11,287 nucleotides of DNA from a virus. Its lineage: Duplodnaviria; Heunggongvirae; Uroviricota; Caudoviricetes. Made by a program: the position numbers. Shown piece by piece: positions 6,001 through 9,000 of the stretch (positions are counted from its first letter, which is position 1; each line of letters starts with the position of its first letter). Location: the IMG/VR virus record IMGVR_UViG_2740892235_000011; one strand, 5' to 3'.

Positions 6001-9000
6001 GTCACCCTGACGTTTAATGTGTCGTCTACCGGCGCGAACAACTGGACACCGACGACGTACATCAGTGATTTACTGGTTGTGGTGATGAAAAAATCCACGG
6101 CGGGAATCAGTATCAGCTGACGGTTTATTAACCCGGACGGGCACCCGAAGTGGTGCCTTTTTTATTGACTGAAAACAAAGAGGTAATCATGCGGTATTTA
6201 TACGGAGCCATTTTATTTTTTACCACCCTGCCGGCAGTAATGACTTTTCCTGCACAGGCTGCAGGCGGACACGGTGCATTTTCCGTGGGATATGCTCAGG
6301 TTCACCCGGGCGGCGTGCCGGTATTGTCCGGTACCGGTGCCCGTACAGGTGATTTAAAAGGGATCAACGTGAAATACCGTTATGAATTCACAGACCATCT
6401 GGGCGGCATAGCCTCGCTGAGTTACGCCTCTGCGAAAAAGAGCAGAACCACGATGACCGGGGATAAGGCATTTCATTATGAAAGTCTGCGTGGCCGTTAT
6501 GTGAGCCTGATGGCGGGGCCGGTCTGGCAGGTCAGTGAGCAGCTCAGCCTTTATGGCATGGCCGGGATGGCGCACACCCGCTGGTCTGACAGTGTTCAGG
6601 ATTACCGGCGTGATGAAGTGACACCGGGGGATGTCAGGGTGACCACCACTGCCAGTGATGGTCATTCTGCACGTCATCTGACGCTGGCATGGGGGGCTGG
6701 ACTTCAGTTTAATCCGGCGGATACGGTGGCGGTTGACCTTGCGTACGAAGTGGCCGGTCATGGTGACTGGCGAACGGATGCGTTTATTGTTGGGATTGGA
6801 TACCGTTTCTGACGGCAGATACAGCTTTATCTTCTGTAAATATTGGTATAATGAGCATGTTCATCCAGCTTATGGGTGAGCTGCGTCTGAGGAAACGTAA
6901 AGTTACACTGTCCTGAAGCCCGTGGCATTACTGCTGCGGGCTTTTTTATTGGTGGAAAGGTATGACGGTTAAAATTTCTGGTGTGCTGAAGGACGGGGCC
7001 GGTAAGCCGGTACCGGGATGCACGATAGAGCTGAAAGCGCGACGCACAACGGAGACGGTNNNNNNNNNNATCCCGCACCAGTAATGACATCTGGACAGAG
7101 TGCTTCCTGCATGTTGATCAGAACGGACGCCGGATTTATTCAGGCAGGTCAGTGGAAGAGCCGGGAATTTTCAGCGGGATCATCGATATGCCAGCTGGCG
7201 GTGGTCATATCACCCTGAGTTTTACCGTGAGCTCACGGCGTCAGAATAACAGTTGGGGCAGTTCACGAATCAGTAACCTTCAGGCGATAGTGGTGAAGAA
7301 AAACAGCGCGGGGATCAGCATCCGCTGAACATCGCGCCCCGGGATTGCCGGAAGGAGACAAAAACCGTACAGTATGCGCGGGTGCCTTTGGCTGATGGCC
7401 GGAGGGAACACCTGAAGGCCGGATGTGAAAAGGCCCCGGACAAAACATTCATGTTTAACCCGAGGCCTGACCATTCATCCTAAGCAAGTGAAAGGTTAGC
7501 GCCTCTCCGTAAAAGGAGCAAGCGTTATGTCGCAAAAACCGTTAAAAACCACCGTGATTTGTATCACGGTAGTGCTCATTATCTGGATCACCCACACTTC
7601 ACTGTGCGAGTTCCGGTTCCGGATAGCGGGCGCGGAGATTGCGGCGTTCTTACAGTGTAAGCGGTAAGAAACCGTGGCGGGGGAGTGTACCTTCCCCGCC
7701 GACCGGTTGCTGAGGGTGATCAGCCGGATGGCACCTTTTTAACATCAATAAATCACAAATTTTACCGCAGGCCGGGAAACCGGTCCTGCGGTTTTTTTAT
7801 GGAGGAAATCCATGGCAGTCAGAATATCGGGTGTGCTGAAGGACGGGGCCGGTAAGCCGGTACCGGGATGCACGATAGAGCTGAAAGCGCGACGCACAAC
7901 GGAGACGGTGATTGTCACCACGGTGGCGTATGGTCAGCCGGGGGAAACCGGCAGTTACAGTATGGATGTTGANNNNNNNNNNTTGAAAGACGGGGCCGGT
8001 AAGCCGGTACCGGGATGCACGATAGAGCTGAAAGCGCGCCGCACAACGGAGACGGTGATTGTCACCACGGTGGCGTATGGTCAGCCGGGGGAAACCGGCA
8101 GTTACAGTATGGATGTTGAGCCGGGGTTGTACCGGGTGACGCTGAACACGGAAGGGTACGCGCCGTCATATGTGGGTGACATTCTGGTGAAGGCGGAGTC
8201 TGCACCGGGAACGCTGAATAAATTTCTGATGGACCTGGAGGACGCACAGTATTACCCGAAAGCCCTTGCAGAGCTGGAAGCGGTGGCCGCGGAAATCCTG
8301 AAACGTGCGGAAGCGTCAGCGGCGAGTGCAGAGGAAGCGAAGAAACGGGCAGAGAATGCGCGGGGACCGAAGGGGGATAAGGGAGACACCGGGCCACAGG
8401 GTATTCCCGGGCCAAAAGGCGATACCGGCGANNNNNNNNNNGGCGGCGAGTGCAGAGGAAGCGAAGAAACGGGCTGAGAATGCGCGGGGACCGAAGGGGG
8501 ATAAGGGAGACACCGGGCCACAGGGTATTCCCGGGCCAAAAGGCGATACCGGCGAGCGTGGGCCAAAGGGTGAGCGTGGTGAGGCAGGCCCACAGGGGGT
8601 ACAGGGGCCACGGGGTGAAACCGGACCCGTGGGACCGCAAGGAGAGGCGGGTATTCAGGGGCCTGCTGGTCCTGCGGGCCCGCGAGGTGAAACCGGAGCC
8701 AGAGGCGAAAAAGGAGAGCCGGGAGATCCCGGAGGACCTCCGGGACCAAAAGGTGACACTGGCCCCAGAGGGGAGCCGGGGCCTCAGGGCCCGGCAGGTC
8801 CACAGGGTATACCTGGACCTCCGGGGCCAACAGGTAGCGTCGGTCCTAAGGGGGAAAAAGGCGAGCCTGGTGATCGNNNNNNNNNNGAGGGGACCTGCCG
8901 GAGAGAGAGGGCCGCAAGGATTGCAGGGTGTGGCAGGGGAGAGAGGCGATACAGGTCCGGCTGGTCCACAGGGTATACCTGGACCTCCGGGGCCAACAGG

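What the first reader, a model, noticed from the sequence alone, without database searches (positions are those of the whole stretch)
7329..7811. Unannotated hok/sok-type type I toxin locus between J and stf
A 46-codon ORF (7527-7667) with a strong RBS encodes a peptide with the Hok/Gef architecture: one transmembrane helix, then SLCEFRFR and AEIAAFLQCK. The locus has the cis elements expected of a hok mRNA. A -35/-10 pair (TTGCCG, 17 nt, TACAGT) puts the start near 7380. The 5' end then carries GGTGCC..GGCTGAT (7381-7396), which is exactly complementary to ATCAGCC..GGCACC (7719-7735) downstream of the stop. A GC hairpin plus T7 terminator follows at 7765-7798. The ORF track misses it because of the length cut-off. 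Such modules act in post-segregational killing, persistence or phage defence and are often unannotated in prophages. I could not find an intact mok frame or locate a Sok antisense promoter by eye.
Basis: partly seen in the sequence, partly recalled or inferred. Interest (0 to 1): 0.8.

Follow-up and report, generated by a model that had tools for sequence, protein, structure and literature searches.

The report
Prophage Hok toxin cassette, no mok
The gap between the tail genes J and stf holds a genuine Hok-type membrane-toxin gene with its self-folding mRNA and a predicted antisense antidote RNA, but the gene is already annotated in public E. coli genomes and a one-residue variant has been shown to be toxic.

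Summary
ORF 7527-7667 encodes a 46-aa peptide that passes Pfam HOK_GEF (42.2 bits, cut-off 22). The leader 7380-7538 matches the Rfam hok-leader model (E 3e-9, below the gathering score). The 5' end pairs with 7716-7737 in the minimum-energy fold (z = -8.6), and that pairing is kept in 20 homologous loci from five genera.

The identical 483 bp is annotated 'Hok/Gef family protein' (WP_000078855.1) between gpJ and the tail-fibre gene in RefSeq E. coli. 202 of 5,426 complete genomes carry at least 80% of it. A 2025-26 survey cloned a one-residue variant (79_1563) for its toxicity assay and does not list it among the three non-toxic constructs.

I added two things.
Its promoter is TTGCTC-17-TAACCT on the minus strand, with a start near 7485 and an end near 7428.
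- mok is truly absent from this whole subfamily, because an in-frame TAG 30 nt upstream closes the hok frame.

The missing mok is the only mildly novel point. Overall interest is low.

The parts
7345..7373 (+). hok promoter: -35 TTGCCG (7345-7350), 17-nt spacer, -10 TACAGT (7368-7373). Predicted +1 at about 7380.
   Evidence: Read directly. It matches 8/12 of the consensus, below the scan threshold. The -35 ATTGCCGG and -10 TAnnnT are kept across contexts in the alignment. The Rfam hok-leader match begins at 7380.
7380..7400 (+). 5' element equivalent to tac. It pairs either with the 3' fbi element or with 7428-7439.
   Evidence: The full-length fold pairs it with 7716-7737. The truncated fold and the RNAalifold consensus pair GGGUGCCUUU with AAAGGCCCC. 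GGGTGCC is invariant in 20 loci.
7428..7467 (+). Leader hairpin. AAAGGCCCCG (7428-7439) is the alternative, ucb-like partner of the 5' end. The complement of the hairpin is the terminator of the antisense RNA.
   Evidence: Inverted repeat I1 at 7431-7468. Folds. Pairs at columns 22-33 / 72-82.
7428..7486 (-). Predicted Sok-like antisense RNA, about 58 nt. It has a variable 5' tail of about 18 nt (7485 to 7468), a hairpin (7467 to 7432) and UUUU (7431 to 7428).
   Evidence: Placed by homology to the annotated sokW of 933W. All 20 loci fold as a free 5' tail plus a GC-rich hairpin plus a U-rich end. No expression data exist.
7493..7521 (-). Predicted Sok promoter: -35 TTGCTC (7521 to 7516), 17-nt spacer, -10 TAACCT (7498 to 7493).
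   Evidence: 933W sokW has TTGCCT-17-TAACCT, and its annotated 5' end lies 7 nt after the -10. TAACCT is invariant, and the TTG of the -35 is kept in 19 of the 20 loci. A substitution mutant of the sokW promoter (named the '-10 promoter element' in the Fig. 1E legend) abolished antitoxin activity (PMC8621323). It is too weak for the consensus scan.
7462..7505 (+). Sok-target hairpin with loop CCUAAGCAA (7479-7487, containing the YUNR motif CUAA). It forms only when the 3' fbi element is removed.
   Evidence: Fold of 7380-7716. The loop's probability of being unpaired is 0.20 in the full-length RNA and 0.91 in the truncated RNA. This is the most variable leader segment among the loci.
7497..7499 (+). 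TAG in frame with hok, 30 nt upstream of its ATG. It closes the frame where mok would read through.
   Evidence: ORF scan: the hok frame is open only from -27 in 14 of 16 subfamily loci, from -15 in L002 and from -36 in L009, with no start codon upstream in any of them. R1-like hok, hokW and hokA are open upstream, and the first two have ATG at -57.
7513..7518 (+). hok Shine-Dalgarno AAGGAG. It is paired with CUCC (7504-7507) inside a bipartite hairpin spanning 7497-7526.
7527..7667 (+). hok CDS: 46 codons plus TAA.
   Evidence: Pfam HOK_GEF 42.2 bits, E 6.1e-11. phrog_251 E 7.5e-21. WP_000078855.1 'Hok/Gef family protein'. The exact sequence occurs on 997 public contigs. Median dN/dS is 0.36.
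7639..7647 (+). UUGCGGCGU, a dcb-like box that pairs with AUGUCGCAA (7527-7535) and so covers the start codon.
   Evidence: RNAalifold pairs at columns 177-185 / 292-300, kept in 19-20 of 20 sequences. The AUG has a probability of being unpaired of 0.15-0.20 in all states.
7674..7702 (+). GC-rich hairpin just after the stop codon. It is the likely 3' end protector of the processed mRNA.
   Evidence: Inverted repeat I5. Four of its pairs show compensatory double changes, for example column 342/365 with AU in 10 sequences and GC in 9. The role is inferred from the R1 model (PMC9841398).
7716..7737 (+). 3' element equivalent to fbi. It pairs with the 5' end.
   Evidence: Homology between the different phage contexts ends right after GGCACC(C).
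7765..7798 (+). Intrinsic terminator: an 11-bp stem with a GAAA loop, then T7.
   Evidence: It is shared only by the J-stf context (L003, L011, L012). The P2-type loci have a different terminator.

Best explanation
This is a self-contained hok/sok-type type I toxin-antitoxin cassette of about 450 bp, carried as a moron between J and stf of a lambdoid prophage.

Shown here:
- A sigma-70-like promoter would start a roughly 419-nt mRNA at about 7380, ending at the T7 terminator.
- The mRNA encodes a 46-aa Hok/Gef-family peptide with one hydrophobic helix.
- In the full-length RNA the 5' end pairs with the 3' element at 7716-7737. In that state the Sok-target loop is closed and the Shine-Dalgarno sits in a 10-bp bipartite hairpin.
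- When the 3' element is removed in silico, the 5' end switches to AAAGGCCCC (7428-7439). The target hairpin then opens, and the Shine-Dalgarno is held by only 3 bp.

Inferred from the R1 and hokW systems:
- Slow 3' exonucleolytic trimming makes this switch in the cell.
- A short-lived antisense RNA of about 58 nt (7485 to 7428) pairs its 5' tail with the exposed loop.
- The resulting duplex is cut by RNase III. The toxin is therefore made only when Sok is no longer replenished.

Difference from the canon: there is no mok leader frame, so Hok must be translated from its own Shine-Dalgarno. In folding models, blocking the Sok target lets the strong Shine-Dalgarno hairpin re-form. Sok could therefore repress directly as well as through decay. 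That step is speculative.

The biological role is not determined. Candidates are prophage retention, help with lysis on induction as reported for hokW-sokW, or exclusion of other phages.
For: Protein:
- Pfam HOK_GEF above its gathering score, and phrog_251.
- 43% identity to K-12 HokA and 41% to HokW.
- The family's conserved L-C-E and E..AA residues are present.
- The ORF is intact at 46-49 aa in loci from Escherichia, Salmonella, Citrobacter, Serratia and Yersinia, with median dN/dS 0.36.
- Variant 79_1563 differs only by T24S. It was among the 45 homologues tested, of which 42 were toxic, and it is not one of the three non-toxic ones named.

RNA:
- RF01794 matches from exactly 7380, E 3.1e-9.
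- The full-length fold has z = -8.6 with the 5'/3' closure.
- The 5'/3' duplex is kept in all 20 loci, mean -28.6 against -16.3 kcal/mol for shuffles. G-C to A-U changes and matched 1-nt indels occur in the distal helix.
- The alternative 5' pairing appears in the alignment consensus and in the truncated fold.
- Target-loop accessibility rises from 0.20 to 0.91.

Sok:
- Same -10 hexamer, same spacer and same distance to the start as the annotated sokW.
- Conserved promoter, variable tail and conserved terminator in 20 loci.

Module behaviour:
- The same promoter-to-fbi unit sits in three phage contexts: J-stf, downstream of lom in Stx phages, and downstream of ogr in P2-like prophages.
Against: - No transcript, processing or toxicity data exist for this exact locus.
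- Both promoters are weak by consensus, and the scan tool reports neither.
- The Rfam score of 51.1 is below the gathering score of 59. The NCBIfam Hok models are far below their cut-offs.
- In R1, loss of the mok start or a stop in mok upstream of hok abolishes Hok translation (PMC9841398). By that rule this subfamily should be silent.
- Predicted Shine-Dalgarno accessibility differs little between states, 0.33 against 0.40.
- Cognate and non-cognate 5'/3' duplex energies are close, -28.6 against -27.1. Most of that signal is therefore conservation, not covariation.
- The U-tract of the predicted Sok terminator is short, 3-4 U.
Confidence: 0.8

Rival explanations
1. Silent relic. The cassette descends from a hok/mok/sok locus, but loss of mok has uncoupled and shut off Hok translation. 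It persists only as hitch-hiking DNA or as an RNA element.
For: - mok is absent, and an in-frame TAG lies at -30.
- In R1 such changes are loss-of-function.
- Degenerate copies exist. Strain CI5 has a deletion that removes the hok 3' half and fbi, and many truncated peptides are in the databases.
Against: - The ORF stays open at the same length across five genera despite dS of 0.4-1.1, with dN/dS about 0.36.
- A good Shine-Dalgarno at 8 nt is conserved.
- All regulatory helices are maintained, some with compensatory changes.
- mok is missing in every member, not sporadically. That pattern fits an old, stable architecture better than recent decay.
- The peptide is toxic when expressed from a foreign Shine-Dalgarno.
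Confidence: 0.12
2. A Hok toxin gene controlled only by mRNA folding and phage late transcription, with no functional antisense RNA. On this view the conserved minus-strand boxes are conserved because they overlap the hok Shine-Dalgarno and the leader helices.
For: - The -35 TTGCTC overlaps the Shine-Dalgarno, and the -10 lies in a stem arm, so their conservation has another explanation.
- Both hexamers match the consensus at only 3 of 6 positions, and the scan tool reports no promoter.
Against: - The same -10 hexamer and geometry drive the annotated sokW in 933W. Mutating the sokW promoter in Sp5 removed antitoxin activity.
- The segment that would form the Sok 5' tail is the most variable part of the leader, while the flanks are conserved. 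This is expected if each locus keeps its own antisense specificity.
Confidence: 0.06
3. Chance ORF in a structured intergenic terminator region between J and stf.
For: The ORF is short, and the region is GC-rich with several hairpins.
Against: - Significant matches in three independent profile libraries.
- Hundreds of annotated homologues.
- The same cassette occurs in unrelated genomic contexts.
Confidence: 0.01

Closest known systems
Hok cluster '79' of Escalera-Maurer et al. (bioRxiv 10.1101/2025.08.07.668861), representative 79_1563; RefSeq WP_000078855.1
   Same: WP_000078855.1 is annotated on DNA that is 100% identical, in the same J-stf slot. 79_1563 differs by one residue (T24S) and was cloned for the toxicity assay. 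It is not among the three non-toxic constructs.
   Different: None at the protein level. That study explicitly did not analyse mok, Sok or mRNA structure.
Unnamed hok homologue downstream of lom in Stx phages (933W L0129, VT2-Sakai/Sp5; cluster '72', 72_1589), and the P2-type copy downstream of ogr (72_1621)
   Same: About 77% DNA identity over promoter to fbi. The peptide is 63% identical to the Stx-phage copy and 59-61% identical to P2-type and related copies. These loci have the same leader and the same 5'/3' pairing, lack mok in the same way and carry the same Sok promoter boxes.
   Different: The insertion site and downstream terminator differ. The Sok-target segment differs, so cross-regulation is unlikely.
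hokW-mokW-sokW of phage 933W / Sp5 (Takada et al. 2021, PMC8621323)
   Same: Prophage-borne hok locus. The Sok promoter has an identical -10 TAACCT, a 17-nt spacer and the same start distance. The leader is homologous, and RF01794 matches both. Toxin and antitoxin activities, and partial dependence on RNase III and Hfq, were shown experimentally for hokW-sokW (and the abstract).
   Different: A different locus, only 41% identical over 34 residues. hokW has an in-frame mokW starting at -57, a 169-nt leader and a 71-nt Sok. Here there is no mok, the leader is 147 nt and Sok is about 58 nt. Rfam scores are 113.5 against 51.1 bits.
hok/mok/sok (parB) of plasmid R1
   Same: The overall logic is shared: tac/fbi closure, an alternative tac/ucb pairing after 3' trimming, a target hairpin with a YUNR loop, a start-region/dcb pairing and a 3' protective hairpin.
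   Different: R1 needs mok translation to translate hok, and here mok is absent. R1 Hok is 52 aa and 28% identical in the alignment.
E. coli K-12 HokA (b4455)
   Same: Best NCBIfam hit, 43% identity, and a shared AAFL.CK C-terminus.
   Different: The score of 37.9 is far below the equivalog cut-off of 89, so this is not a HokA orthologue. hokA keeps an in-frame mokA frame.

Membership tests
Hok/Gef protein family (Pfam PF01848) | Profile match above the curated gathering score | tested here: met
   42.2 bits against a cut-off of 22, E 6.1e-11, residues 10-44 on profile positions 8-42 of 42. phrog_251 also matches at E 7.5e-21.
Hok/Gef protein family (Pfam PF01848) | About 50 aa, an N-terminal hydrophobic helix, then the conserved L-C-E ... 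E..AA motif | tested here: met
   46 aa. Residues 9-23 (TVICITVVLIIWITH) are hydrophobic by inspection. L26, C27, E28, E37, A39 and A40 are invariant or nearly so in the alignment with HokA/B/D/E and R1 Hok. These match the conserved positions reported. No transmembrane predictor was run.
Hok/Gef protein family (Pfam PF01848) | Toxic on overexpression | not testable with these tools
   From the literature only. The one-residue variant 79_1563 was in the tested set, and it is not among the non-toxic constructs 19_179, 60_1482 and 69_1540.
HokA orthologue (NCBIfam NF007290 equivalog) | Score above the equivalog cut-off | tested here: not met
   37.9 bits against 89. The Hok subfamily model NF007279 scores 36.8 against 73.
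hok/sok-type type I TA locus (R1 paradigm) | Long-range pairing of the mRNA 5' end (tac) with a 3' element (fbi) | tested here: met
   MFE fold, z = -8.6. The duplex is -35.8 kcal/mol, against -16.3 +/- 3.5 for shuffled 3' segments pooled over the 20 loci, and it is present in all 20 loci.
hok/sok-type type I TA locus (R1 paradigm) | An alternative 5' pairing in the 3'-truncated mRNA that exposes the antisense target | tested here: met
   In silico only. See the RNAalifold consensus and the truncated fold. The target loop's probability of being unpaired rises from 0.20 to 0.91.
hok/sok-type type I TA locus (R1 paradigm) | A cis-encoded antisense RNA (Sok) with its own promoter and terminator, complementary to the leader | tested here: inconclusive
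   Promoter boxes and geometry are identical to the annotated sokW, and the shape is conserved in 20 loci. The promoter is weak by consensus, and no expression data exist.
hok/sok-type type I TA locus (R1 paradigm) | A mok leader frame that overlaps hok and is needed for its translation | tested here: not met
   The hok frame is closed by a stop 15-36 nt upstream in all 16 subfamily loci scanned, with no start codon before hok. The controls are open upstream: R1-like and hokW with ATG at -57, and hokA as far as the IS150 border.
hok/sok-type type I TA locus (R1 paradigm) | Rfam RF01794 match at the gathering score | tested here: not met
   51.1 bits against 59, E 3.1e-9, covering the full model 1-157. 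Canonical loci score 87-113 bits, and other subfamily members 36-52.
hok/sok-type type I TA locus (R1 paradigm) | 3' processing of the mRNA, RNase III cleavage of the duplex, and an unstable antitoxin with a stable toxin mRNA | not testable with these tools
   Known for R1 and partly for hokW. Nothing is known for this locus.

The most novel reading that the evidence does not exclude
This prophage-borne Hok clade comprises survey clusters 72, 79 and 82. Relatives occur in about a third of complete E. coli genomes and in Salmonella, Citrobacter, Serratia and Yersinia. The clade may be a distinct regulatory sub-architecture of hok/sok, in which the mok leader has been lost and Hok is translated from its own Shine-Dalgarno. 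Sok would then repress by letting a Shine-Dalgarno-sequestering hairpin re-form, in addition to RNase III decay, rather than by blocking mok. I found no description of mok-less hok loci in the searchable literature, but that search is far from exhaustive.
Probability: 0.4. Interest if true: 0.35.

Novelty: already known. Interest (0 to 1): 0.2.

Why it matters
As a gene, this adds nothing. It is annotated by PGAP, catalogued in a recent Hok survey, and a one-residue variant has been shown to be toxic.

Its practical value is as a clean worked example. A sequence-only reader correctly recovered a type I toxin cassette that a 60-aa ORF cut-off hides.

The one point worth a specialist's attention is regulatory. 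The textbook R1 model makes mok translation obligatory for Hok synthesis, yet a large and evidently maintained prophage clade has no mok. If these loci are active from their native leaders, mok coupling is not a universal feature of hok/sok. The Sok mechanism would then need re-examination in this clade.

The same slot between J and stf holds lom in a sibling prophage fragment in this very window. This illustrates how that slot collects morons.

Tried and rejected
1. The consensus promoter scan found no promoter on either strand. I did not take this as absence, because the experimentally supported sokW promoter is equally weak by consensus.
2. I expected hokW-sokW of Sp5 to be the closest relative. 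It is a different, R1-like locus in the same phages. The true relative there is the unnamed gene downstream of lom.
3. I first recalled mok as lying in a different frame from hok. The ORF scan on R1-like, hokW and hokA loci showed it is an in-frame N-terminal extension, and I corrected the analysis.
4. The cognate versus non-cognate 5'/3' duplex test gave only a small difference, -28.6 against -27.1 kcal/mol. I therefore claim conservation plus a few compensatory changes, not strong covariation.
5. RNAalifold did not return the tac/fbi helix. The 3' element aligns poorly because of indels. It returned the alternative truncated-state fold instead.
6. My first attempt to model Sok binding with dot-bracket constraints silently applied no constraint. 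I repeated it with explicit unpaired constraints.
7. I looked for a conserved short upstream ORF that could replace mok, for example AUU at 7473 or GTG at 7488. Neither is conserved.
8. A long ORF in the -1 frame starting at ATG -103 exists in only a few loci and is stopped in the others.
9. The minus-strand ORFs 7263-7448 and 7280-7474 have no Pfam match and lie outside the conserved cassette.
10. The PDB sequence search found nothing.
11. The literature search for mok-less hok loci returned only unrelated papers.
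Full report
**The observation.**
- The J reading frame stops at 7326-7328, and the tail-fibre gene starts at 7812.
- The 483-bp gap holds a 46-codon ORF at 7527-7667. It encodes MSQKPLKTTVICITVVLIIWITHTSLCEFRFRIAGAEIAAFLQCKR, and AAGGAG lies 8 nt upstream.
- The ORF is missed at a 60-aa cut-off and found at 20 aa.
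- TTGCCG (7345-7350), 17 nt, then TACAGT (7368-7373) predicts a start at about 7380.
- GGTGCC..GGCTGAT (7381-7396) is complementary to ATCAGCC..GGCACC (7719-7735).
- An 11-bp GC-rich hairpin with a GAAA loop, followed by T7, lies at 7765-7798.

The window itself is a patchwork of 21 pieces joined by runs of ten N. The whole locus lies inside one intact piece, 7070-7972, which is 99.9% identical to a finished E. coli chromosome.

**The protein.** The peptide passes Pfam HOK_GEF at 42.2 bits against a gathering score of 22 (E 6.1e-11). It hits PHROG phrog_251, 'MokW-like host killing', in the moron category, at E 7.5e-21. NCBIfam's HokA and Hok models match but stay far below their cut-offs. It is therefore a family member and not an orthologue of a named K-12 gene. 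It is 43% identical to K-12 HokA and 41% to HokW. It carries the family's conserved L-C-E and E..AA positions.

**The mRNA.**
- *Rfam match.* Rfam RF01794 matches the plus strand over 7380-7538, covering the whole model and starting exactly at the predicted +1 (51.1 bits, gathering score 59, E 3.1e-9). Although it is named 'sok', this model describes the hok-sense leader. In phage 933W it matches the strand opposite the annotated sokW.
- *Full-length fold.* The predicted transcript 7380-7798 folds at -187.2 kcal/mol (z = -8.6), with 7380-7400 paired to 7716-7737.
- *Truncated fold.* With the 3' element removed, the 5' end pairs with AAAGGCCCC at 7428-7439. A long hairpin at 7462-7505 then forms and presents the loop CCUAAGCAA. 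The probability that this loop is unpaired rises from 0.20 to 0.91.
- *Alignment consensus.* RNAalifold on 20 loci returns the same truncated-state 5' fold. It also returns a pairing of the start codon region (7527-7535) with UUGCGGCGU (7639-7647), and a hairpin after the stop codon with four compensatory pairs.
- *Fit to R1.* These are the elements of the R1 model as summarised in PMC9841398: tac, fbi, ucb, dcb and the 3' protective stem.

**Conservation of the 5'/3' pairing.** I aligned 20 loci from Escherichia, Salmonella, Citrobacter, Serratia and Yersinia. Every one keeps a stable 5'/3' duplex, with a mean of -28.6 kcal/mol against -16.3 +/- 3.5 for shuffled 3' segments. The 7-bp core is invariant and says nothing about covariation. 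In the distal helix there are G-C to A-U and C-G to U-A double changes, and a matched 1-nt shortening on both sides. Cognate pairs are only slightly better than non-cognate pairs (-28.6 against -27.1). I therefore claim conservation of complementarity, with limited covariation.

**Sok.** Phage 933W carries an annotated sokW.
- *sokW.* Its 5' end lies 7 nt after TAACCT, which is preceded at 17 nt by TTGCCT. It ends in the U-run after a GC-rich hairpin.
- *sokW promoter mutant.* Substitutions in the sokW promoter, called the '-10 promoter element' in the Fig. 1E legend, abolished antitoxin activity in Sp5 (PMC8621323).
- *This window.* The homologous positions read TTGCTC (7521 to 7516), 17 nt, then TAACCT (7498 to 7493). 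This gives a start at 7485/7486 and an end at 7428, an RNA of about 58 nt.
- *All 20 loci.* The -10 box is invariant and the -35 TTG is kept in 19 of the 20. The first 18 nt or so of the predicted RNA are highly variable, and the terminator hairpin is conserved. That pattern is expected if each locus keeps its own recognition sequence.

This is a prediction by homology. The promoter is too weak for the consensus scan, and I have no expression data.

**mok.** In the R1-like hok, hokW and K-12 hokA loci, mok is an in-frame N-terminal extension of hok. It starts at ATG -57 in the first two. In this subfamily the hok frame is closed by a stop 15-36 nt upstream in all 16 loci scanned. In 14 of them, including the window, it is the TAG at -30 (7497-7499). 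There is no start codon before hok, and no other upstream ORF is conserved. The position of the mok ATG reads ATT or CGT/CTT/CAT-type triplets.

In R1 such changes stop Hok synthesis. Here, however, the ORF has stayed open at 46-49 codons across dS of 0.4-1.1, with median dN/dS 0.36. Its Shine-Dalgarno is conserved. I conclude that mok-independent translation is more likely than a silent relic, but this is inference.

Folding models suggest a possible mechanism. With the Sok target blocked, the 3' arm of the target hairpin is released, and the 10-bp bipartite hairpin over the Shine-Dalgarno re-forms. The predicted accessibility differences are small, so I rate this as speculative.

**What is already known.**
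- The identical 483 bp occurs in complete E. coli genomes, where PGAP annotates WP_000078855.1 'Hok/Gef family protein' between gpJ and the 'prophage tail fiber N-terminal domain' gene.
- 202 of 5,426 complete genomes have at least 80% of the query, and 1,750 have some relative.
- The exact peptide is on 997 public contigs under that name.
- In older phage records it is a 'hypothetical protein', as in phage 1720a-02.
- The survey of Escalera-Maurer et al. (bioRxiv 10.1101/2025.08.07.668861) lists 79_1563, which differs only by T24S, among the constructs tested for toxicity. Of the 45 homologues tested, 42 were toxic, and the three non-toxic ones named are others.
- That study states that it did not analyse mok or Sok.

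**Relatives and context.** Relatives at 75-79% DNA identity sit downstream of lom in Stx phages (933W L0129, VT2-Sakai). They also sit downstream of ogr at the end of P2-like prophages. Homology between these contexts runs from the -35 box to just past GGCACC(C), and the terminators differ. The mobile unit is therefore promoter to fbi.

Stx phages thus carry two hok loci. One is the studied hokW-sokW, and the other belongs to this subfamily. In the window itself a second, different J C-terminus is followed by lom (5464-6120 and 6150-6812). The J-stf slot therefore holds lom in one prophage copy and hok in another.

**Verdict.** The locus is a member of the Hok/Gef protein family, and it works like a hok/sok module. 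It lacks mok and falls below the Rfam and NCBIfam thresholds, so it is a divergent branch and not a canonical hok/mok/sok locus. The gene is already annotated and catalogued, so the finding is not novel. The absence of mok across a widespread clade is the only point that might interest a specialist.

Noticed in passing
window 1-11287 (N runs at 171-180, 387-396, 1068-1077 ... 10284-10293): The window is not contiguous DNA. It is made of 21 pieces joined by 10-N spacers. Neighbouring pieces overlap or repeat the same reference coordinates, and they match two different reference prophage regions at 82-100% identity. The broken J and stf ORFs, and the XXXX in translations, are artefacts of this.
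   Followed up: partly
window 5464-6120 and 6150-6812: A second, different J C-terminal receptor-binding domain (Ig_GpJ_C) is followed by an Ail/Lom outer-membrane protein gene. In a sibling prophage fragment the J-stf slot therefore carries lom instead of the hok cassette.
   Followed up: partly
L020 603-777 (933W) and window 7380-7538: Rfam RF01794, named 'sok antitoxin (CssrC)', matches the hok-sense strand. In 933W the annotated sokW is on the opposite strand (653-723). The model therefore describes the hok mRNA leader, and a hit gives the strand of hok, not of Sok.
   Followed up: yes
L002 2671-2811; 933W L0129; VT2-Sakai 44531-44905: Stx phages carry two hok loci. One is the studied hokW/mokW/sokW. 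The other is an mok-less locus just downstream of lom, which is a 'hypothetical protein' in the older records and 'MokW-like host killing' in a 2025 record.
   Followed up: partly
L013-L017, L022 (hok at about 1683 or 2501): The same cassette sits immediately downstream of the ogr/Delta zinc-finger gene at the end of P2-like prophages. These prophages are inserted at several chromosomal sites (near ihfA-pheT, serS and flk). In some loci a Com zinc-ribbon plus DNA methyltransferase pair follows.
   Followed up: no
L012 1688-1798 (E. coli CI5): A decayed copy in the same J-stf slot. The start is GTG instead of ATG, and a deletion removes the hok 3' half, the protective hairpin and the fbi element. 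The downstream terminator is kept.
   Followed up: no
L004, L005, L007: Genome records labelled Planococcaceae MAG, Vagococcus sp. and Xanthomonas pisi contain P2-type hok loci almost identical to those of E. coli. This probably reflects enterobacterial contamination or mislabelled contigs.
   Followed up: no
L008, L014, L016 (ATG at hok -103): In a few loci a long ORF in the -1 frame starts at the ATG of GGATGTGG in the leader and overlaps most of hok. In the window it stops at once (ATG TGA), and it is closed in most other loci. It is probably not a gene.
   Followed up: partly
window 8450-9598: The tail-fibre fragments contain collagen-like Gly-X-Y repeats (Pfam Collagen, E 1.5e-16). A DUF4376 gene follows at 10226-10768. 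Both are ordinary for this kind of side tail fibre region.
   Followed up: no
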